Source of the DNA: a virus
Lineage: Duplodnaviria > Heunggongvirae > Uroviricota > Caudoviricetes
Reading direction: 5' to 3' (one strand)
Virus record (IMG/VR): IMGVR_UViG_3300014512_000020
Location: 1 to 5,652 of that record
DNA length: 5,652 bases
Below the pieces are notes generated by a model that saw nothing but the letters and a program-made list of their open reading frames with translations, was not told the DNA's origin and ran no database searches. A program made the translations under genes and the position numbers. The first letter of the stretch is position 1; every line of letters begins with the position of its first letter. Shown piece after piece: positions 1 to 5,652 of the stretch.

Positions 1-6
1 TATTAT

Positions 7-20
7 CCCGGCCGGGAGGA
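7..20 (+). promoter_or_regulatory. Perfect 10-bp palindrome cccggccggg (7..16) overlapping the Shine-Dalgarno gggagga (14..20) of the esterase gene
   Basis: Read directly: the palindrome is self-complementary; GGAGG at 15..19 lies 4 nt before the ATG at 24. The window starts here, so upstream context is missing. Confidence 0.4.
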
Positions 21-23
21 TTC

Positions 24-1994
24 ATGGCATTTAAACACTATGACGTGGTCAGGGCGGCATCGCCGTCAGACCTTGCGGATGCGCTTGCTCAAAAAATTCG
101 TGAAGGATGGCAACCATACGGCGGGCCGTTTTCTTCGTATACGGATGATGGCGCAGCACTTATTCAGGCGATTGTCGCAGAAGGTAATGTCACCACACCT
201 GTGGTGGTGAAGCCGTCGGATGGAGAAGGCGCAGTTATCAGCACCACCAGCAACCCGGAGTATTACTTTGTTGTTGCCCTGGCCGGGCAGTCAAACGGTA
301 TGGCGTATGGTGAAGGGCTTCCGCTGCCGGAGACATATGACCGTCCGGACCCGCGTATTAAACAGCTGGCGCGTCGCAGCACTGTCACGCCGGGTGGTGC
401 GTCCTGTAACTACAATGACATTATTCCTGCGGACCACTGCCTGCATGATGTTCAGGATTTGAGTAAGTTTTCACACCCGAAAGCCAGTGCAGCTCAGTAT
501 GGATGCGTGGGGCAGGGATTACATATCGCGAAGAAATTGTTGCCGTTTATTCCGGCGAATGCCGGTATTCTTCTGGTTCCGTGCTGCCGTGGTGGTTCTG
601 CATTTTTGGCGGGCGATGAAGGTACCTTCAGCGAATCCACCGGCGCAAGCGAGACCTCGGCACGCTGGGGTGTAGATAAGCCACTGTACAAGGACCTGCT
701 TACCCGTACTCAGGCCGCACTGAAGGCCAACCCTAAAAATATTCTGCTTGCAGTGGTCTGGATGCAGGGCGAGTTTGATTTGAAACAGGGTGCATACGCC
801 ACTCAGCCGGGGCTGTTTGATTCCATGGTGGAAAAATATCGTTCTGACCTGTCGGAATTCGGAGGTCAGTGTCTCGGGGGCTCTCCGTCATCAGTTCCCT
901 GGATTTGTGGCGACACGACCTACTACTGGAAGCAGACTTATTCTTCGCAATACGATGCGGTGTATGGTGCATATAAGACGAAATCCGCAAAAAAAATCTT
1001 CTTTGTGCCGTTTATGACGGATGAAAACGGGCGAAATGTGGGTACCAACGAGCCGTCAGAAGATCCGGATGTTGCGGATATTGGGTATTACGGAGCCGGT
1101 GGTCGAACGGACGCCAAAACCTGGACGACGGCTGACCGTAAAACGCATTTTGGATCATGGGCACGTCGTGGGATTATTTCCGACCGTCTGGCAACGGCGA
1201 TTCTTGTGCATGCCGGGAGAACCGCTGAATTCATTACCGGAAAACAGCCTGATACGGTGAAGCCCACCGGACCTTCCGGTGAAGGTACGGAGAGAGAGCC
1301 GGAAGCTCCGGTCAGTAACCGAACCCTGATGAGTCTGCTGGCGTCCGGCGAAGACCTGGCATCACAGGGCTGGCGCTATTATCACAAACCGGCGAGCGGA
1401 GACAATGTTAACAAAAACATTGCTGAAGCGGTGGTCAGTGATGCGGGGGCTACGGGAGGTAAGGCCCTGCAACTGAATAAACCGGAAAACCACATCTGGT
1501 TTCTGGAGCATGATGCAGCCGGGCAGGGGGCAGAGTTGCTGAAGAAAGGAGGACGTGTGAGCGTACGGTTTAAGTTGCCGGGTTCACTGGTGCCGAATCA
1601 GTTTGCCCTGGGCATTTACTGGCAGTTGTCGTCCCTGCCGGAGGGAGTGACGCTGGCAGAGGAAGGCAACGACATGCTGATGTCCTTCTTCCTGCAGACG
1701 GATGCGACGAACCTGAACGCGATGCACCACAAGAAGCCGAATGCGAAGCTGGATACGTTCGGGGTCTTTGATAACGGATGGCACACACTGGCTTTTGAGT
1801 TTGCCGGAAACAACAGCATTCAGGTGACGCCGGTACTGGATGAGAAACGGGGGACGCCGTTCACACTGGTGAAATCTCCGGCATCAGGGGCGGCGGACAA
1901 ACTGCAACTGACAGGCATATCAAAGGCGGCGACATATACGCTGCTGATTGACAGTGTGAAGGTGGAAGTGAACAACGCGGATGCCGCGGCATGA
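24..1994 (+). CDS. nanS-p: Prophage sialate 9-O-acetylesterase, NanS-p-like (N-terminal DUF1737-like region, SGNH/SASA esterase core, C-terminal putative carbohydrate-binding region), 656 aa
   Basis: Long uninterrupted ORF with good RBS. N-terminus MAFKHYDVVRAASPSDLADALAQKIREGWQPYGG is the characteristic start of prophage NanS-p/933Wp42-type proteins. GQSN block with the putative nucleophile Ser90 (nt 285..296) is typical of the SASA/SGNH family. Size and position upstream of a lysis cassette match Stx-phage architecture. Domain names are from memory, not from a search. Confidence 0.85.
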   Translation: MAFKHYDVVRAASPSDLADALAQKIREGWQPYGGPFSSYTDDGAALIQAIVAEGNVTTPVVVKPSDGEGAVISTTSNPEYYFVVALAGQSNGMAYGEGLPLPETYDRPDPRIKQLARRSTVTPGGASCNYNDIIPADHCLHDVQDLSKFSHPKASAAQYGCVGQGLHIAKKLLPFIPANAGILLVPCCRGGSAFLAGDEGTFSESTGASETSARWGVDKPLYKDLLTRTQAALKANPKNILLAVVWMQGEFDLKQGAYATQPGLFDSMVEKYRSDLSEFGGQCLGGSPSSVPWICGDTTYYWKQTYSSQYDAVYGAYKTKSAKKIFFVPFMTDENGRNVGTNEPSEDPDVADIGYYGAGGRTDAKTWTTADRKTHFGSWARRGIISDRLATAILVHAGRTAEFITGKQPDTVKPTGPSGEGTEREPEAPVSNRTLMSLLASGEDLASQGWRYYHKPASGDNVNKNIAEAVVSDAGATGGKALQLNKPENHIWFLEHDAAGQGAELLKKGGRVSVRFKLPGSLVPNQFALGIYWQLSSLPEGVTLAEEGNDMLMSFFLQTDATNLNAMHHKKPNAKLDTFGVFDNGWHTLAFEFAGNNSIQVTPVLDEKRGTPFTLVKSPASGAADKLQLTGISKAATYTLLIDSVKVEVNNADAAA

Positions 1995-2003
1995 TAAAAA
2001 AAG

Positions 2004-2059
2004 GCCGCCAGCAATGAAGGAAAGGGATGAACTGTGTCCACTACATGAATGCTGGCGGC
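2004..2059. repeat. Inverted repeat gccgccagca / tgctggcggc (10-bp arms, ~36-nt spacer) just after the esterase stop, preceded by an A-run (1994..2002)
   Basis: Read directly from sequence. The spacer is too long for a canonical intrinsic terminator; on the minus strand the arms are followed by a T7 run. Confidence 0.35.
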
Positions 2060-2145
2060 TGGGAAAACGACCACGATGACACCGAAGTTTGCGATATTTT
2101 TCTACAAAAATAAGTAAATCATGTCAACTATCACGGTGAGAAACC

Positions 2146-2328
2146 ATGACATTTCTGAACCAGTTAATGCTGTACTTCTGTACGGCAGTCTGTGTTATGT
2201 ATCTTCTTTCGGGTGGGTACAGGGCAGTGCGCGATTTCTGGCGCAGGCAGATTGATAAAAGGGCCGCTGAGAGAATCAGCGCCAGTCAGTCAGCCGGAAG
2301 CAAACCCGAAGATCCGCTCATTCCGTAG
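2146..2328 (+). CDS. Hypothetical small membrane protein, 60 aa (N-terminal hydrophobic helix LMLYFCTAVCVMYLLSGGY, basic C-terminal tail)
   Basis: ORF with a weak SD-like GGTGAG 5 nt upstream of the ATG; one predicted TM segment; same strand and intergenic placement as neighbouring genes. No homolog recognised. Confidence 0.35.
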   Translation: MTFLNQLMLYFCTAVCVMYLLSGGYRAVRDFWRRQIDKRAAERISASQSAGSKPEDPLIP

Positions 2329-2365
2329 TCACTTTCTTGACAACACCTTTCAACGAGAAAATCCC

Positions 2366-2635
2366 ATGTCAGAAATCACATCCCTGGTCACTGCTGAGGC
2401 AGTGAAGGAAGTCCTGCGCTCTGAAGAAGTCCTGAGCGCACTGAAACAGAAACTCCGCCAGAACCTTGAGGCGCGTCTTGATGCAGAAGTGGATGCCATT
2501 CTGGATGAGCTGCTGGGCGTACCAGCGGTTCCGGAGCCGGAAGGCATTGCGGATGACAGTACTGTTTCAGATGGCGTCGGGTCTCAGCCTGACGGTAGTG
2601 AAGAGCCTCAGCCTGACGGCGAAATGATGATGTAA
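2366..2635 (+). CDS. Hypothetical highly acidic protein, 89 aa (MSEITSLVTAEAVKEVLR...; 21 Asp/Glu vs 6 Lys/Arg; C-terminal repeated QPDG motif)
   Basis: The ORF track gives 2192..2635 (147 aa), but the upstream extension is hydrophobic, low-complexity and overlaps the preceding ORF. ATG at 2366 gives a compact protein with a helical N-terminal half and an acidic, disordered-looking C-terminus. A TTGACA hexamer lies at 2337..2342 but has no good -10 partner. Confidence 0.6.
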   Translation: MSEITSLVTAEAVKEVLRSEEVLSALKQKLRQNLEARLDAEVDAILDELLGVPAVPEPEGIADDSTVSDGVGSQPDGSEEPQPDGEMMM

Positions 2636-2710
2636 CCATGCGCAGGGGGTGTCGGTGTGAGCTGATGCCCCACTTGTTGTTGTGAGCTTCCGGATTGCGG
2701 GAGACGGGGT

Positions 2711-2925
2711 ATGTACCAGATGGAAAAAATCACAACAGGTGTGTCATACACCACGTCAGCGGTGGGAACGGGCTNNNNNNNNNNNNNNNNNNNNNNNNNN
2801 NNNNNNNNNNNNNNNNNNNNGCAATAGGCGTGCTGGGGAGTCTGCTGTTTGGGCTGCTGACATATCTGACTAACCTGTATTTCAAAATCAGAGAGGACCG
2901 GCGTAAGGCGGCGCGGGGAGAGTAA
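2711..2925 (+). CDS. S: Holin S, phage-21 S21-like class II (pinholin-type) with dual-start motif M1-Y-Q-M4; central part masked by N
   Basis: N-terminus [21 protein letters not shown] (2711..2773) and C-terminus [34 protein letters not shown] (2821..2922, stop 2923..2925) both match lambdoid/Stx-phage S21-family holins from memory. GGGAG sits 7 nt upstream of the ATG. The two halves are in different frames across the 46-N run, consistent with a true gap of 47 nt (about 71 aa in total). Confidence 0.75.
2775..2820. other. Run of 46 ambiguous bases (N) inside the holin gene: an assembly gap or masked segment
   Basis: Read directly from sequence. Confidence 0.99.
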
Positions 2926-2926
2926 A

Positions 2927-3280
2927 GTGATGAATAAAAAATATGAACTGGTTGTTAAGGGGATAAATAATTACGGGGATAAGGTTACTGTTACTGTGAA
3001 GCCGGAAGGTGACAGGCAAGCGTCGCTGTTGTTGCCAGATGTGGCGATTAGTCTTGACCGTACTGAAGGTGCCACGCTGGAGTTTTACGAAGCTGAGGCG
3101 AAAAAGCAGGCGAAGCAGTTTTTCATGGATGTTGCTGCCGGGTTATGTGAAGGGGACGAACCGTTGCCGGAAAAGCGCCCCGTAATTTTAGAGGCGCAGA
3201 ATGTGTTGATAACCTACAAAGGAAAGCTACCGGGAAGAATTACTTGTTCTCTGAAGACTCCACCGGAATCACAACCTTAA
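2927..3280 (+). CDS. Hypothetical soluble protein, 117 aa, inserted between holin and endolysin (MMNKKYELVVKGINNYGDKVTVTVKPEGDR...)
   Basis: ORF begins 2 nt after the holin stop (GTG 2927 or ATG 2930) with GGAG at 2917..2920. No TM segment or signal peptide is evident; no family recognised. Compact spacing within the operon supports it being a real gene. Confidence 0.6.
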   Translation: MMNKKYELVVKGINNYGDKVTVTVKPEGDRQASLLLPDVAISLDRTEGATLEFYEAEAKKQAKQFFMDVAAGLCEGDEPLPEKRPVILEAQNVLITYKGKLPGRITCSLKTPPESQP

Positions 3281-3343
3281 TTCACTGACCGGAACAGATA
3301 AACCTGTCCGTGGGCAGAAACCGATAAATCCTGATAAATATCC

Positions 3344-3868
3344 ATGAACGCAAAAATCAGATACGGCCTGTCGGCTGCCGTTCTGGCGCTGGGTGCGCCT
3401 GCGCCTGACATTCTCGACCAGTTTCTGGATGAAAAGGAAGGTAACCACACCACGGCATACCGTGATGGTGCGGGTATCTGGACTATCTGCCGCGGTGCCA
3501 TCCTGGTGGATGGCAAACCTGTCGTTCCGGGCATGAAGTTGTCGAAGGAAAAATGCGACCAGGTTAACGCCATTGAGCGTGATAAAGCGCTGGCGTGGGT
3601 GGAGAAAAACATCAGAGTGCCACTGACCGAACCCCAGAAAGCGGGGATCGCGTCATTCTGTCCGTACAACATTGGTCCCGGTAAGTGTTTCCCGTCGACG
3701 TTTTATAAACGAATTAATGCAGGTGATCGCAGGGGAGCGTGTGAGGCGATTCGCTGGTGGATTAAGGACGGTGGCAGAGACTGCCGTATTCGTTCAAACA
3801 ACTGCTACGGTCAGGTATCCCGTCGTGACCAGGAGAGCGCGCTGGCGTGCTGGGGAATCGACAGATAA
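3344..3868 (+). CDS. R: Endolysin R, T4-lysozyme-like glycoside hydrolase family 24 muramidase, phage-21 R21-like; possible N-terminal SAR segment; 174 aa
   Basis: Catalytic triad spacing E32-x8-D41-x5-T47 (EGNHTTAYRDGAGIWT), characteristic of true lysozymes. The C-terminal segment KRINAGDRRGACEAIRWWIKDGG resembles R21 and P1 Lyz. The N-terminal Gly/Ala-rich weakly hydrophobic stretch YGLSAAVLALGAPAP is consistent with, but short for, a signal-anchor-release domain. Confidence 0.9.
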   Translation: MNAKIRYGLSAAVLALGAPAPDILDQFLDEKEGNHTTAYRDGAGIWTICRGAILVDGKPVVPGMKLSKEKCDQVNAIERDKALAWVEKNIRVPLTEPQKAGIASFCPYNIGPGKCFPSTFYKRINAGDRRGACEAIRWWIKDGGRDCRIRSNNCYGQVSRRDQESALACWGIDR

Positions 3869-3958
3869 GCAGAATATTTTGCTGAAAAATAAGGTATGGC
3901 CACGCGGGCGGATAACACGAAATCCTGCGAACTGGCGAAACGTAAGTGAATAAAAGTA

Positions 3959-3997
3959 AAAACCCCGTTTGTTGGCACCAAGCGGGGTTTTGTGTTT
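3959..3997 (+). terminator. Intrinsic-terminator-like hairpin: stem aaaaccccgtttg / caagcggggtttt (13 bp with one G-U), 7-nt loop, followed by a T-rich tract; A-run upstream makes it potentially bidirectional
   Basis: Read directly: arms 3959..3971 and 3979..3991, loop ttggcac, then gtgttt. It lies between the endolysin stop and the small ORF at 4028. Confidence 0.55.
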
Positions 3998-4027
3998 CCT
4001 GACTCCGGAAAAGTCAAAGGAGAAAGT

Positions 4028-4165
4028 GTGTTTGATTTTAGCAAACTGATTCGGGAGATTCGAGTGATGGCTGAAAAATTATCCACCTGGAAGTTCATTC
4101 TTATCTGGCTGGTGTTTGTGATTATGGCCTCCGGTTATTTCATCGGTCAGATACGCTGGTGGTGA
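4028..4165 (+). CDS. Hypothetical small single-pass membrane protein, 45 aa from GTG 4028 (or 32 aa from ATG 4067), translationally coupled to Rz
   Basis: Strong SD AGGAG (4018..4022) 5 nt before GTG 4028. Hydrophobic core WKFILIWLVFVIMASGYFIGQI. Stop TGA at 4163..4165 is 1 nt before the Rz ATG at 4167. No family recognised. Confidence 0.45.
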   Translation: MFDFSKLIREIRVMAEKLSTWKFILIWLVFVIMASGYFIGQIRWW

Positions 4166-4166
4166 A

Positions 4167-4604
4167 ATGAACCGCGTACTGTGCGTGGTCATCATTGCCC
4201 TGCTGGTGGCCTGTGGTGCGCTTAGTCTGGGGCTGAATCATTACCGTGATAACGCCATGACCTACAAAGAGCAGCGCGATAAAGCCACATCCATCATCGC
4301 TGATATGCAGAAGCGTCAACGTGATGTAGCAGAACTCGACGCCAGATACACAAAGGAGCTTGCTGATGCTAACGCGACTATCGAAAGTCTCCGTGCTGAT
4401 GTTTCTGCTGGTCGTAAGCGCCTGCAAGTCGCCGCCACCTGTGCAAAGTCAACGACCGGAGCCAGCAGCATGGGCGATGGAGAAAGCCCAAGACTTACAG
4501 CAGATGCTGAACTCAATTATTACCGTCTCCGAAGTGGAATCGACAAGATAACCGCGCAGGTTAACTACCTGCAGGAATACATCAGGACGCAATGCCTGAA
4601 ATAA
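4167..4604 (+). CDS. Rz: Rz, i-spanin (inner-membrane spanin subunit), 145 aa
   Basis: N-terminal TM helix, then the NHYRDNA...QRDK...RQRDVAELDARYTKELADA segment closely matching lambda Rz; coiled-coil-rich periplasmic domain; sits downstream of the endolysin. Confidence 0.9.
   Translation: MNRVLCVVIIALLVACGALSLGLNHYRDNAMTYKEQRDKATSIIADMQKRQRDVAELDARYTKELADANATIESLRADVSAGRKRLQVAATCAKSTTGASSMGDGESPRLTADAELNYYRLRSGIDKITAQVNYLQEYIRTQCLK
4366..4551 (+). CDS. Rz1: Rz1, o-spanin (outer-membrane lipoprotein subunit), embedded in the +1 frame inside Rz, 61 aa
   Basis: AAAGGAG (4353..4359) 6 nt before ATG 4366. Signal peptide MLTRLSKVSVLMFLLVVSAC with lipobox VSAC, followed by the Pro-rich mature part CKSPPPVQSQRPEP, as in lambda Rz1. 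The ORF track starts at 4360 (TTG); ATG 4366 is preferred. Confidence 0.8.
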   Translation: MLTRLSKVSVLMFLLVVSACKSPPPVQSQRPEPAAWAMEKAQDLQQMLNSIITVSEVESTR

Positions 4605-4635
4605 TTTTTTTGCAAATCACAAAGTCAATTTAATG

Positions 4636-4658
4636 AGCCTCGCGATGCGGGGCTTTTT
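4636..4658 (+). terminator. Intrinsic terminator: stem agcctcgc / gcggggct (8 bp, one G-U), loop gat, followed by ttttt
   Basis: Read directly; GC-rich stem and T5 run about 30 nt downstream of the Rz stop. Confidence 0.55.
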
Positions 4659-4665
4659 GCAATAA

Positions 4666-4690
4666 ATGCGTACCGCAACGCATGTTTTTT
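4666..4690 (+). terminator. Second intrinsic terminator in tandem: stem atgcgt / acgcat (6 bp), loop accgca, followed by g + tttttt
   Basis: Read directly; T6 run at 4685..4690. Confidence 0.5.
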
Positions 4691-4805
4691 ACACCGAACC
4701 TGCCCCTTTGGAATGGGCCTTTGAGGATACCAGTTAGTGCTGGCGAGCCTCGGTGGGCTGGTTTCCTGTGCGGCAAAGGTTCATTTCAAAGAGTAGGTAC
4801 ACGCT

Positions 4806-5303
4806 ATGAAATCATTAACCCTCTTCAATCAACCAATTCGTATCGGTGAAGATGGCATGATCTGCCTCACTGATATGTGGAAAGCCAGTGGTAAAAGTGA
4901 ATCTGAATCGCCTTACCACTACCTGCGAAACAAGCAGACCAAAGAGTTCTTAGCCGAGCTGGAGAAAAACCACGAATCTGTGGTTTTTACTGAGCGCGGT
5001 GTACACGGTGGAACATATGGCGGGAAGTTTGTTGCTTACGATTATGCGGCTTGGTTAAACCCCGGGTTCAAGTACGCGGCCTATAAAGTCCTCGATGACT
5101 ACTTCACCGGAGAACTTCAGCATCGCAACAGCTTAAGTGCGCAGCTCAACATGAAATGTCATGAGTTTGACCAGAAGAAAGACATGGCGAGCTTCTGCGG
5201 ACAAGGGCTGGCAGCATGGCGCTATACGAAGCCAGTGTTGGTCGCTGAGATTAACTCCCTGGCTAACCAGCTGCAGATTACGATCCCCGGGCTTCCGGGA
5301 TGA
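4806..5303 (+). CDS. KilA-N-like domain protein (putative DNA-binding / antirepressor-like), 165 aa
   Basis: N-terminal segment LTLFNQPIRIGEDGMICLTDMWKASGKSESESPYHYLRNKQTKEFLAEL fits the KilA-N pattern from memory (conserved Gly, aliphatic-x-T-D/E-hydrophobic-x-K-A-x-G-K, then W/Y-L-R and T-x-E-F). A Bro-N alternative is not excluded without an HMM search. Confidence 0.7.
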   Translation: MKSLTLFNQPIRIGEDGMICLTDMWKASGKSESESPYHYLRNKQTKEFLAELEKNHESVVFTERGVHGGTYGGKFVAYDYAAWLNPGFKYAAYKVLDDYFTGELQHRNSLSAQLNMKCHEFDQKKDMASFCGQGLAAWRYTKPVLVAEINSLANQLQITIPGLPG

Positions 5304-5557
5304 GTGATCGTGTTATTGAATGCGCCTCCAGAGCGGGGCGCGACTTCTCAGAGTTCATGAAAGGCGAGAAGGGCATGATGGAAGCATTGGCCTCGGTGGA
5401 TGAGTTTGGCGAGCAGCTGCGCCTCAACGGCTGTGTCAATCATCACTTTGTTAGCTACATGATGCGGAACTCGATCATGCAGGCATTCATGGACATGGCA
5501 AAAGCCGAGAGGAAAGAAGAGCGCCGGCGTAAGCGAGCGGAAGCAAAAGCGAAGTAG
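5300..5557 (+). CDS. Hypothetical protein, 85 aa, with a Lys/Arg/Glu-rich C-terminal tail (AKAERKEERRRKRAEAKAK); start overlaps the KilA-N stop (ATGA)
   Basis: The 4-nt ATGA start/stop overlap at 5300..5303 implies translational coupling to the upstream gene. No family recognised. Confidence 0.55.
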   Translation: MSDRVIECASRAGRDFSEFMKGEKGMMEALASVDEFGEQLRLNGCVNHHFVSYMMRNSIMQAFMDMAKAERKEERRRKRAEAKAK

Positions 5558-5597
5558 CCATTACAAAGCCTATCTACGGGTGGGCTTGATAATGGCT
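5556..5597. repeat. Nested inverted repeats overlapping the stop of the last ORF: outer arms agccatta / taatggct, inner arms aagcc / ggctt
   Basis: Read directly: outer arms 5556..5563 and 5590..5597, inner arms 5566..5570 and 5583..5587. No T-run follows, so it is not a canonical terminator. Confidence 0.35.
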
Positions 5598-5609
5598 TAT
5601 ACCCTACAC

Positions 5610-5635
5610 GGGATAACTTAACTGATATCCCTTTT
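5610..5635 (+). terminator. Weak terminator-like hairpin: gggata / tatccc with a 10-nt loop, followed by tttt
   Basis: Read directly; short stem and short T-run, hence low confidence. Confidence 0.3.
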
Positions 5636-5652
5636 AAAGGATAAAGGTATTC

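What the first reader, a model, noticed from the sequence alone, without database searches (positions are those of the whole stretch)
24..1994. Prophage-borne NanS-p-type sialate O-acetylesterase adjacent to the lysis cassette
This is a host-interaction cargo gene, not a phage structural or lysis gene. In EHEC-type lambdoid prophages such esterases remove O-acetyl groups from mucin-derived sialic acids and typically sit directly downstream of the Shiga-toxin genes. If that holds here, stx would lie just upstream of position 1, outside this window. The 656-aa length, compared with the ~645 aa I recall for the 933W homolog, suggests allelic variation, probably in the C-terminal region.
Basis: partly seen in the sequence, partly recalled or inferred. 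Interest (0 to 1): 0.4.

Follow-up and report, generated by a model that had tools for sequence, protein, structure and literature searches.

The report
Phage sialic-acid esterase without Shiga toxin
The window carries an intact phage gene for an enzyme that strips acetyl groups from gut-mucus sialic acids; it belongs to a well-known family, but in this version the neighbouring Shiga-toxin slot is almost certainly empty, and the protein's small front domain looks like a swappable anchor that ties the enzyme to the phage head.

Summary
The ORF is real: 24..1994, + strand, 656 aa, with a strong ribosome-binding site. It has the three NanS-p domains: DUF1737, an SGNH/SASA esterase core (E=1.5e-118 to E. 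coli NanS, PDB 3PT5; Gln89-Ser90 and His375 conserved) and a lectin-like C-terminal domain (E=4e-61 to the phi24B NanS-p domain, PDB 6YP6).

1. stx upstream is very unlikely. No locus with this esterase body type has stx (0 of 33). A contig encoding the identical protein shows the 1.33-kb stxAB cassette cleanly absent. The hosts are ExPEC, APEC or commensal E. coli.

2. This is not a minor C-terminal variant of the 933W allele. It is about 63% identical overall, with differences in every domain.

3. "Not a structural gene" is now doubtful. A 2026 preprint shows that the phi24B orthologue docks on the capsid through DUF1737.

Across 54 loci, the DUF1737 variant tracks head-module type far better than the esterase body does (AMI 0.77 versus 0.15). 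The window's variant occurs only with one head type (16 of 16). It differs from its nearest relative by a replacement patch of about 110 nt.

This is a known family and an uncharacterised allele class. Interest is modest.

The parts
14..20 (+). Shine-Dalgarno-like GGGAGGA, 3 nt upstream of the ATG
   Evidence: Read directly from the sequence.
24..1994 (+). NanS-p-type sialate O-acetylesterase gene, 656 aa, intact
   Evidence: ORF list; Pfam DUF1737 + SASA + DUF6645; PDB 3PT5 and 6YP6; full-length match to phrog_143.
30..182 (+). DUF1737 domain (aa 3-53), the putative capsid-docking module; variant N1
   Evidence: Pfam PF08410, E=1.1e-11; phrog_2036 stand-alone family; capsid-binding role shown for phi24B gp84; variant typing.
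78..186 (+). Replacement patch (gene nt 55-163, aa 19-55) holding 46 of the 51 nt differences from the SCU-172 allele; covers the anchor-loop region
   Evidence: Mismatch map; the same 3' boundary recurs in two other esterase-body backgrounds.
186..257 (+). Linker 1 (aa 55-78, GNVTTPVVVKPSDGEGAVISTTSN); the phi24B SISSP motif is replaced by NVTTP
   Evidence: Alignment; motif described in the preprint.
249..1205 (+). SGNH type II (SASA) catalytic domain, aa 76-394
   Evidence: 3PT5 alignment, E=1.5e-118; motifs GQSN 88-91, RGGSAF 189-194, QGEFD 248-252, RKTH 372-375.
288..293 (+). Codons for Gln89 (oxyanion hole) and Ser90 (nucleophile)
   Evidence: They align to NanS Gln18/Ser19; roles taken from PMC9063846.
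1146..1148 (+). Codon for His375 (general base), in block IV RKTH
   Evidence: Aligns to NanS His301; block IV variants RSSH/RASH/RPTH are listed in PMC10462455.
1209..1421 (+). Linker 2 (aa 396-466), the most divergent stretch and the main source of the extra length relative to the 645-aa allele
   Evidence: 41% identity and 18 gap columns against Sakai.
1422..1976 (+). Lectin-like jelly-roll C-terminal domain (aa 467-651; DUF6645)
   Evidence: 6YP6, E=3.9e-61; Pfam PF20350. The phi24B site aromatics Y510/Y515/Y540/F611 map to F527/Y532/F556/deleted.
2146..2328 (+). DUF1378 small hydrophobic protein
   Evidence: Pfam, E=1.5e-36; same position in relatives.
2366..2635 (+). DUF826 protein
   Evidence: Pfam match begins at residue 59 of the longer ORF; annotated as 270 nt in relatives.
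2711..2925 (+). Class II holin, interrupted by a 46-N run (2775-2820)
   Evidence: Sequence; homologous position annotated as a class II holin in L001; flanks 98-99% identical.
3344..3868 (+). Endolysin (phage lysozyme)
   Evidence: Pfam PF00959, E=3e-24.
4167..4604 (+). Rz i-spanin, with the Rz1 o-spanin embedded at 4360-4551 in another frame
   Evidence: Pfam Phage_lysis; phrog_3198 Rz-like spanin; lipobox VSAC in the translation.

Best explanation
The gene encodes an intact three-domain NanS-p-type sialate O-acetylesterase. It lies in the late operon of a stx-negative lambdoid phage or prophage of the kind carried by extraintestinal and commensal E. coli.

Shown: domain architecture, catalytic residues, gene order, and the absence of stx in every allele-matched relative examined.

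Inferred from characterised homologues: the gene is transcribed with the lysis genes under Q antitermination. The protein has no signal peptide, so it stays in the cytoplasm until lysis. The SGNH core (Ser90 nucleophile, His375 base, Gln89 plus a Gly forming the oxyanion hole, no catalytic Asp) removes 7/8/9-O-acetyl groups from free and mucin-bound sialic acids. [quoted passage not shown]

Inferred from the phi24B cryo-EM preprint and from the co-variation found here: the N-terminal DUF1737 domain is a head-docking adaptor, so at least part of the enzyme travels on the virion surface and is not released only as a soluble conversion factor. The window carries the N1 adaptor variant. Everywhere else that variant accompanies one packaging and head module: a DUF1441 small terminase, a 707-aa large terminase and a ClpP-protease/major-capsid fusion.
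For: Family: Pfam; PDB 3PT5 E=1.5e-118 and 6YP6 E=3.9e-61; all four SGNH blocks located; NanS active-site residues from PMC9063846; activity of nanS-p alleles in EDL933 and O104:H4 summarised in PMC8065619.

Late-operon position: Q, tRNAs, esterase, DUF1378, DUF826, holin, lysozyme, Rz in seven annotated relatives.

No stx: 0 of 33 loci of this body type, against 27 of 117 overall. In the identical-protein contig L006, positions 23-465 align to Sakai 2781-3224 and positions 465-896 to Sakai 4556-5000. The 1331 bp that hold stx2AB are therefore missing at one point.

Docking: phi24B gp84 DUF1737 forms hexamers plugged into hexon centres. Here the N-variant predicts head type: N1 goes with the HS13-1 type in 16 of 16 loci, the phi24B-type variant with phi24B-type heads in 7 of 8, and N0 with lambda-type (22), type 4 (7) or another type (1). 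AMI is 0.77, against 0.15 for the esterase body. For 18 dereplicated combinations it is 0.56 against -0.23, permutation p=2e-4. Q type, the 450-nt upstream region and Rz type are all shuffled relative to head type. The variable patch (aa 19-55) contains the published anchor loop. Its 3' boundary recurs in three esterase-body backgrounds.
Against: No activity data exist for this allele class. Its catalytic domain is 72% identical to the Sakai-type NanS-p (933W/phi24B class).

One of the four proposed carbohydrate-site aromatics (F611) falls in a deletion.

For docking, the evidence has several weaknesses:
- The only direct evidence is one preprint that has not been peer reviewed, on a T=9 podovirus.
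- Its Tyr42 'tooth' is Asp42 here, with a Tyr at position 39 instead.
- Both SSP-type putative processing motifs are absent (NVTTP, KPTGPSG).
- Variant N0 occurs with at least two unrelated capsid-protein families.
- L135 is a genuine mismatch: phi24B-type domain with a type-4 head.
- The loci are not phylogenetically independent.

Part of the linkage could arise neutrally if co-resident prophages exchange only their homologous stretches.

The window has no head genes, and its 3' end (4692-5652) is closest to phages with the type-4 head.
Confidence: 0.75

Rival explanations
1. One reading: a cargo esterase of an EHEC-type Stx-converting prophage, with stxAB lying immediately upstream of the window.
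For: In Stx phages nanS-p does sit about 490 bp downstream of stxB. 27 of 117 sampled loci have stx there. The N1 variant occurs with stx in 7 of 23 loci, always with other esterase bodies.
Against: 0 of 33 loci with this body type have stx. The identical-protein contig and four complete genomes with the 656-aa allele have an empty slot. The best Stx-phage protein match is 66%. The nearest genomes are ExPEC, APEC or commensal strains.
Confidence: 0.04
2. A purely soluble lysogenic-conversion enzyme. It is released when a fraction of lysogens lyse, and it lets the surviving population grow on O-acetylated sialic acids. In this phage the DUF1737 domain has no capsid role.
For: This is the published model for NanS-p: growth of lysogens on Neu5,9Ac2 and de-O-acetylation of mucin glycans. 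The S88 and SCU-172 relatives keep an intact esterase although their large terminase is frameshifted, which suggests benefit to the host without virions. Tyr42 and the SSP motifs are not conserved. N0 occurs with unrelated capsid families.
Against: It does not explain why a patch of about 110 nt tracks head type while both of its flanks recombine freely. It also does not explain why the protein lacks a signal peptide. phi24B gp84 is on virions. The two roles are not mutually exclusive.
Confidence: 0.35
3. An adsorption aid. A virion-borne or released esterase removes O-acetyl groups from bacterial surface polysaccharides, such as O-antigen or the O-acetylated K1 polysialic-acid capsule of many carrier strains, and so exposes the phage receptor.
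For: The idea is raised as a hypothesis in PMC8065619. Several hosts of the 99% allele or its close relative are K1 strains or meningitis isolates: APEC O2:K1:H7, the O18 strain (NMECO18 locus tags), a CSF isolate and S88. It is compatible with capsid display.
Against: There is no experimental support. The host distribution may simply reflect phylogroup B2 lineage. The enzyme is closest to NanS, which acts on free and mucin sialic acids.
Confidence: 0.08
4. An inert remnant of a decaying prophage, with no current function.
For: Some relatives sit in prophages with frameshifted terminase or portal genes.
Against: The 656-codon ORF is intact, with all catalytic motifs. The 90% cluster has 3518 members. 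The body sequence is identical at the protein level across different phage backbones.
Confidence: 0.03

Closest known systems
NanS-p of Stx phages 933W / VT2-Sakai / phi24B (z1466, 933Wp42, vb_24B_21, gp84; 645 aa)
   Same: Same three-domain order (DUF1737, SGNH/SASA, lectin-like domain). Same slot in the late operon between the tRNAs and the holin. GQSN, RGGSAF and QGEFD are conserved. The C-terminal domain matches PDB 6YP6 at E=3.9e-61.
   Different: Only 63% identical overall (399 of 633 aligned residues, 35 gap columns). Different DUF1737 variant (61% identity; Asp42 in place of Tyr42). Block IV is RKTH, not RASH. Linker 2 is longer. F611 is deleted. The SISSP and SSP motifs are absent. 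No stx upstream in the allele-matched relatives (none of which has the phi24B-type head); the window itself holds no head genes.
Chromosomal E. coli NanS (YjhS), PDB 3PT5
   Same: The catalytic core aligns end to end (aa 76-394, E=1.5e-118), with the Ser/His dyad and the Gln of the oxyanion hole in place.
   Different: NanS is a single domain of 326 aa encoded in the nan regulon. It lacks both the DUF1737 and the lectin-like domains.
RefSeq WP_021524664.1 ('DUF6645 domain-containing protein') of E. coli HS13-1, APEC E18055 and related strains
   Same: 656 aa, 654 of 656 residues identical. Same N1 variant, same body, same stx-less slot.
   Different: In those genomes the downstream lysis region is a different mosaic. 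The window's 2001-4813 matches the SCU-172 type, and 4692-5652 matches the cM8a type.
S88 / SCU-172 prophage esterase (WP_000874508.1, WP_174183218.1; 653 aa)
   Same: Residues 79-656 are 99-100% identical. Same flanking genes, 98-99% nt identity over 2821-4813.
   Different: It carries the N0 DUF1737 variant (75% identity, loop 5 residues shorter) and sits with lambda-type head genes. 46 of the 51 nt differences lie within gene nt 55-163.

Membership tests
NanS-p (prophage-borne sialate O-acetylesterase) | Three-domain architecture: N-terminal DUF1737, SASA/SGNH core, C-terminal lectin-like domain | tested here: met
   All three Pfam families score above their gathering thresholds. PDB 3PT5 and 6YP6 match the core and the C-terminal domain.
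NanS-p (prophage-borne sialate O-acetylesterase) | NanS-type versions of SGNH blocks I-IV, with the catalytic Ser and His | tested here: met
   GQSN 88-91, RGGSAF 189-194, QGEFD 248-252, RKTH 372-375. Ser90 and His375 align to NanS Ser19 and His301. The two middle residues of block IV differ from the published RSSH/RASH.
NanS-p (prophage-borne sialate O-acetylesterase) | Location in a lambdoid late region, downstream of Q and the tRNAs and upstream of the holin | tested here: met
   The downstream half is seen in the window. The upstream half is seen in the identical-protein contig and in seven annotated relatives.
NanS-p (prophage-borne sialate O-acetylesterase) | Esterase activity on Neu5,9Ac2 and mucin O-acetyl sialic acids | not testable with these tools
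   Only homologues have been assayed (reviewed in PMC8065619). The catalytic domain is 72% identical to the Sakai-type allele.
Stx-converting phage locus | stxA and stxB between the tRNA cluster and nanS-p | tested here: not met
   The window itself cannot show this: only 23 nt lie upstream, and the contig probably ends there. All allele-matched relatives lack stx (0 of 33), with a clean empty-site junction.
DUF1737 capsid-decorating protein (phi24B gp84 type) | N-terminal DUF1737 domain followed by a flexible linker | tested here: met
   PF08410 at aa 3-53, followed by a 24-residue linker rich in Pro, Gly, Ser, Thr and Val.
DUF1737 capsid-decorating protein (phi24B gp84 type) | Anchor-loop 'tooth' Tyr42 that inserts between major-capsid-protein helices | tested here: inconclusive
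   Position 42 is Asp. The loop keeps one Tyr, at position 39, and every variant has one Tyr in this loop. There is no structure for this variant or its capsid.
DUF1737 capsid-decorating protein (phi24B gp84 type) | SSP-type motifs proposed as autoprocessing sites in both linkers | tested here: not met
   NVTTP replaces SISSP, and KPTGPSG replaces RPSSPSG. The role of the motifs is itself only proposed.
DUF1737 capsid-decorating protein (phi24B gp84 type) | Physical presence on purified virions | not testable with these tools
   The support is indirect only: the N-variant co-varies with head module type (AMI 0.77 against 0.15 for the body; N1 with one head type in 16 of 16 loci).

The most novel reading that the evidence does not exclude
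DUF1737 may be a head-type-specific docking cassette. A patch of about 110 nt is exchanged at conserved boundaries so that the same esterase body can be displayed on different lambdoid capsids, including siphovirus-type heads in stx-negative ExPEC prophages. If so, NanS-p would be primarily a virion surface enzyme for moving through or sticking to sialylated mucus, or for stripping O-acetyl groups from K1 capsule. It would not be a simple lysogenic-conversion 'moron'. The window's allele would be a recent re-fitting of the S88-type enzyme to a different head.
Probability: 0.3. Interest if true: 0.6.

Novelty: new member of a known kind. Interest (0 to 1): 0.3.

Why it matters
The gene itself is ordinary. 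NanS-p esterases are well described, they are known to occur in non-Stx prophages, and near-identical proteins are already in RefSeq under uninformative names.

Two points are useful.

First, a nanS-p gene is a poor predictor of stx. In the sample here only 27 of 117 loci had stx in the slot, and none of the 33 with this allele class did. It should not be read as a marker of an EHEC prophage.

Second, the N-terminal domain is tightly linked to the head module while everything around it recombines. This is independent genomic support for the recent claim that NanS-p is a capsid-displayed enzyme. It suggests that the display mechanism extends beyond phi24B-like podoviruses to common prophages of extraintestinal pathogenic E. 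coli. That bears on how such phages behave in mucus.

Tried and rejected
- Source contig: exact 57-mer scans of genome contigs, viral contigs and metagenome contigs found nothing. The cluster look-up suggests the window is itself a complete 5652-bp contig, so its own flanks cannot be read.
- NCBIfam gave no hit for the esterase.
- The primary papers could not be read: Rangel 2016 and Rangarajan 2011 are not held. Active-site facts were taken from PMC9063846 instead.
- PMC10088187 concerns a different chromosomal nan cluster and was set aside.
- My first typing run silently dropped loci because of a too-strict motif regex. It was redone.
- A 70% identity cut-off for head typing wrongly merged L111 (large terminase 71% identical) into the HS13-1 type. 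It was relabelled.
- A strict one-variant-one-capsid model was rejected. N0 occurs with two unrelated capsid-protein families, and L135 is a real mismatch.
- The consensus promoter and terminator scan was uninformative for the gene: 6 promoter-like sites against 4.6 expected, all on the minus strand.
- Structure prediction was not run. Sequence matches to solved structures already settle the folds, and locus-derived alignments are not accepted by that tool.
Full report
**Observation.** The window holds a 656-codon ORF at 24..1994 on the + strand. GGGAGGA lies 3 nt before the ATG. Three Pfam families pass their gathering thresholds: DUF1737 (aa 3-53), SASA (aa 86-277) and DUF6645 (aa 506-619). 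Against solved structures, aa 76-394 match E. coli NanS/YjhS (3PT5, E=1.5e-118) and aa 467-651 match the C-terminal domain of a phage NanS-p (6YP6, E=3.9e-61).

**Catalytic machinery.** NanS uses Ser19 and His301, has no catalytic Asp, and forms its oxyanion hole from a Gly and Gln18 (PMC9063846). In the 3PT5 alignment these residues correspond to Gln89, Ser90 and His375 of the window protein. The motifs GQSN 88-91, RGGSAF 189-194, QGEFD 248-252 and RKTH 372-375 are all present. Block IV is RSSH in NanS and RASH in Stx-phage NanS-p, with RPTH in prophage 86 (PMC10462455). RKTH is another variant that keeps the Arg and the His. The N-terminus (MAFKHYDVVRAASPSDL...) has no hydrophobic signal-like stretch, so the protein should stay in the cytoplasm until lysis. 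This is an inference from the sequence.

**Surroundings.** Downstream come the following genes:

| Coordinates | Gene |
|---|---|
| 2146-2328 | DUF1378 |
| 2366-2635 | DUF826 |
| 2711-2925 | class II holin, interrupted by 46 N |
| 2930-3280 | YdfR/DUF1327 |
| 3344-3868 | lysozyme |
| 4167-4604 | Rz, with Rz1 embedded |
| 4806-5303 | KilA-N/ORF11CD3 protein |
| 5300-5557 | 85-aa ORF |

The window is a mosaic. Positions 1-2012 are 99.4-99.9% identical to the N1/B0 esterase haplotype (L007, L006, HS13-1). Positions 2001-4813 are 98.7-99.9% identical to strain SCU-172. Positions 4692-5652 are 94% identical to strain cM8a.

**Is stx upstream?** Only 23 nt precede the gene. The exact protein is recorded on contigs whose longest is 5652 bases, the window's own length, so the window is probably a whole metagenome contig. 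I therefore tested the prediction on relatives.

- As positive controls, VT2-Sakai and Stx2_14040 show tRNAs, stx2A, stx2B, about 490-510 bp, then nanS-p.
- The contig encoding the identical 656-aa protein (L006) shows a methylase 3' end, tRNA-Met/Arg/Arg, 473 bp, then the esterase.
- Its upstream DNA aligns to Sakai on both sides of stx and skips the 1331 bp that hold stx2AB at a single junction.
- Four complete genomes with the 656-aa allele (HS13-1, APEC E18055 O2:K1:H7, the O18 strain with NMECO18 locus tags, AR_0013) and three with the 653-aa sister allele (S88, SCU-172, cM8a) have the same empty slot.
- Among 117 loci with at least 1.9 kb upstream, 27 carry stx. None of the 33 with the window's esterase body type does.

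The nearest complete genomes are human ExPEC or commensal, avian pathogenic and CSF-derived strains. Stx phages reach about 86% nt identity over 55-60% of the window.

**How different is the allele?** No protein in the phage collection exceeds 66% identity, and 933W/Sakai-type alleles are about 60%. Identity to Sakai by region is 61% for DUF1737, 72% for the catalytic domain, 41% for linker 2 (with 18 gap columns) and 60% for the C-terminal domain. The extra length comes mainly from linker 2 and the start of the C-terminal domain. Published NanS-p lengths run from 636 to 657 aa (PMC10462455), so 656 aa is within the known range. The four aromatics proposed for the phi24B carbohydrate site (Y510, Y515, Y540, F611) map to F527, Y532 and F556, and the fourth falls in a one-residue deletion. 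The 90% cluster has 3518 members, all from E. coli. They are named variously as DUF1737 or DUF6645 proteins, sialate O-acetylesterase or 9-O-acetyl-Neu5Ac deacetylase.

**Structural gene or cargo?** The review literature treats NanS-p as a conversion enzyme that lets lysogens use O-acetylated sialic acids (PMC8065619). A 2026 preprint (10.64898/2026.04.10.717836) reports that phi24B gp84, a NanS-p, is an abundant virion protein. Its DUF1737 domain forms hexamers plugged into hexon centres through a loop bearing Tyr42, and the protein is processed after about residue 54-57. The Sakai sequence reproduces those landmarks (Tyr42, Gly54, SISSP). The window has Asp42 with a Tyr at position 39, and NVTTP in place of SISSP.

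**Co-variation test.** If DUF1737 docks on capsids, its variants should follow head type. I collected 132 IMG/VR loci with 10-kb flanks and eleven annotated or metagenome loci. Among 54 loci with a known head type:

| DUF1737 variant | Head types found |
|---|---|
| N1 (window type) | HS13-1 type, 16 of 16 |
| phi24B type | phi24B-type heads 7, type-4 head 1 |
| N0 (S88 type) | lambda-type 22, type 4 (S78 protease-capsid fusion) 7, HS13-related type 1 |

- Adjusted mutual information with head type is 0.77 for the N-variant and 0.15 for the esterase body.
- For 18 dereplicated combinations the values are 0.56 and -0.23, permutation p=2e-4.
- Body types, Rz types, upstream clusters and Q types each occur with several head types.
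- Against SCU-172, 46 of the window gene's 51 nt differences fall in gene nt 55-163 (aa 19-55).
- The same 3' boundary (gene nt 154-172) recurs in two other body backgrounds.

**Limits of that test.** The loci are not independent. N0 accompanies two unrelated capsid-protein families (PF03864 and PF05065). L135 is a genuine mismatch. Conversion restricted to homologous stretches could preserve some linkage neutrally, although non-homologous Q cassettes in the same region do get shuffled. The window has no head genes, and its 3' end resembles type-4 phages, so its own head type is unknown. I rate capsid docking for this particular phage at roughly even odds.

**Verdict.**
- **What is right:** this is an intact, typical NanS-p-family esterase in an ordinary late-operon position.
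- **What is wrong:** the stx and EHEC inferences.
- **What is out of date:** the claim that it is not a structural gene.
- **Where it stands:** it is a new, uncharacterised member of a known family.
- **What I added:** the link between the N-terminal module and the head module is the only part with wider interest.

Noticed in passing
window 2775-2820: A run of 46 N lies inside the holin gene. Relatives have 47 nt there, so the reading frame shifts across the gap. The mechanical ORF 2695..2925 is an artefact; the real start is the ATG at 2711 (dual-start MYQM...).
   Followed up: yes
window 3959-4165: A strong terminator-like hairpin (13-bp stem, then a T-rich tail) sits inside the lysis cassette at 3959-3991, between the lysozyme and Rz. 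It is followed by a small ORF with a hydrophobic helix (3992-4165; phrog_6632, function unknown). S88 annotates a 45-aa hypothetical protein at the same place.
   Followed up: partly
window 1-5652: The window is a three-part mosaic, with junctions near 2012 (just after the esterase stop) and in the 4692-4813 overlap. Each part is closest to a different E. coli prophage lineage. No single genome or contig in any collection matches all of it.
   Followed up: yes
window 2146-2635: Two small conserved genes of unknown function, DUF1378 (hydrophobic, 60 aa) and DUF826 (89 aa), always sit between nanS-p and the holin, in Stx and non-Stx phages alike.
   Followed up: no
L135 (IMG/VR UViG_2778260993_000014), about 7990-21880: The one clear mismatch to the domain-head rule. 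It has a phi24B-type DUF1737 domain and an Stx1-like toxin gene upstream (55% identity to Stx2A), but a type-4 large terminase and portal (97-98% identity).
   Followed up: partly
protein cluster of window:24-1994: Several partial members of the 90% cluster (P0006, P0009, P0011-P0013) are named 'phage terminase large subunit family protein' in NCBI. This looks like an annotation error for esterase fragments.
   Followed up: no
L001 16380-18297; L002 16396-18322; L088 25039-27623: In S88 and SCU-172 the large terminase is frameshifted, and in cM8a the portal is frameshifted, yet the esterase is intact. It may be retained in defective prophages.
   Followed up: no
L003 8283-8358, L088 11266-11341, L004 2932-3007: The first tRNA of the upstream trio has anticodon CAT. 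It is annotated tRNA-Met in some records and tRNA-Ile in others, probably because it is a lysidine-modified Ile tRNA.
   Followed up: no
(hosts of the closest alleles): Several carriers of this allele class are K1-type or meningitis-associated strains (APEC O2:K1:H7, the O18 strain with NMECO18 locus tags, S88, a CSF isolate). Their polysialic-acid capsule can be O-acetylated, so it is a conceivable alternative substrate for a virion-borne sialate esterase.
   Followed up: no
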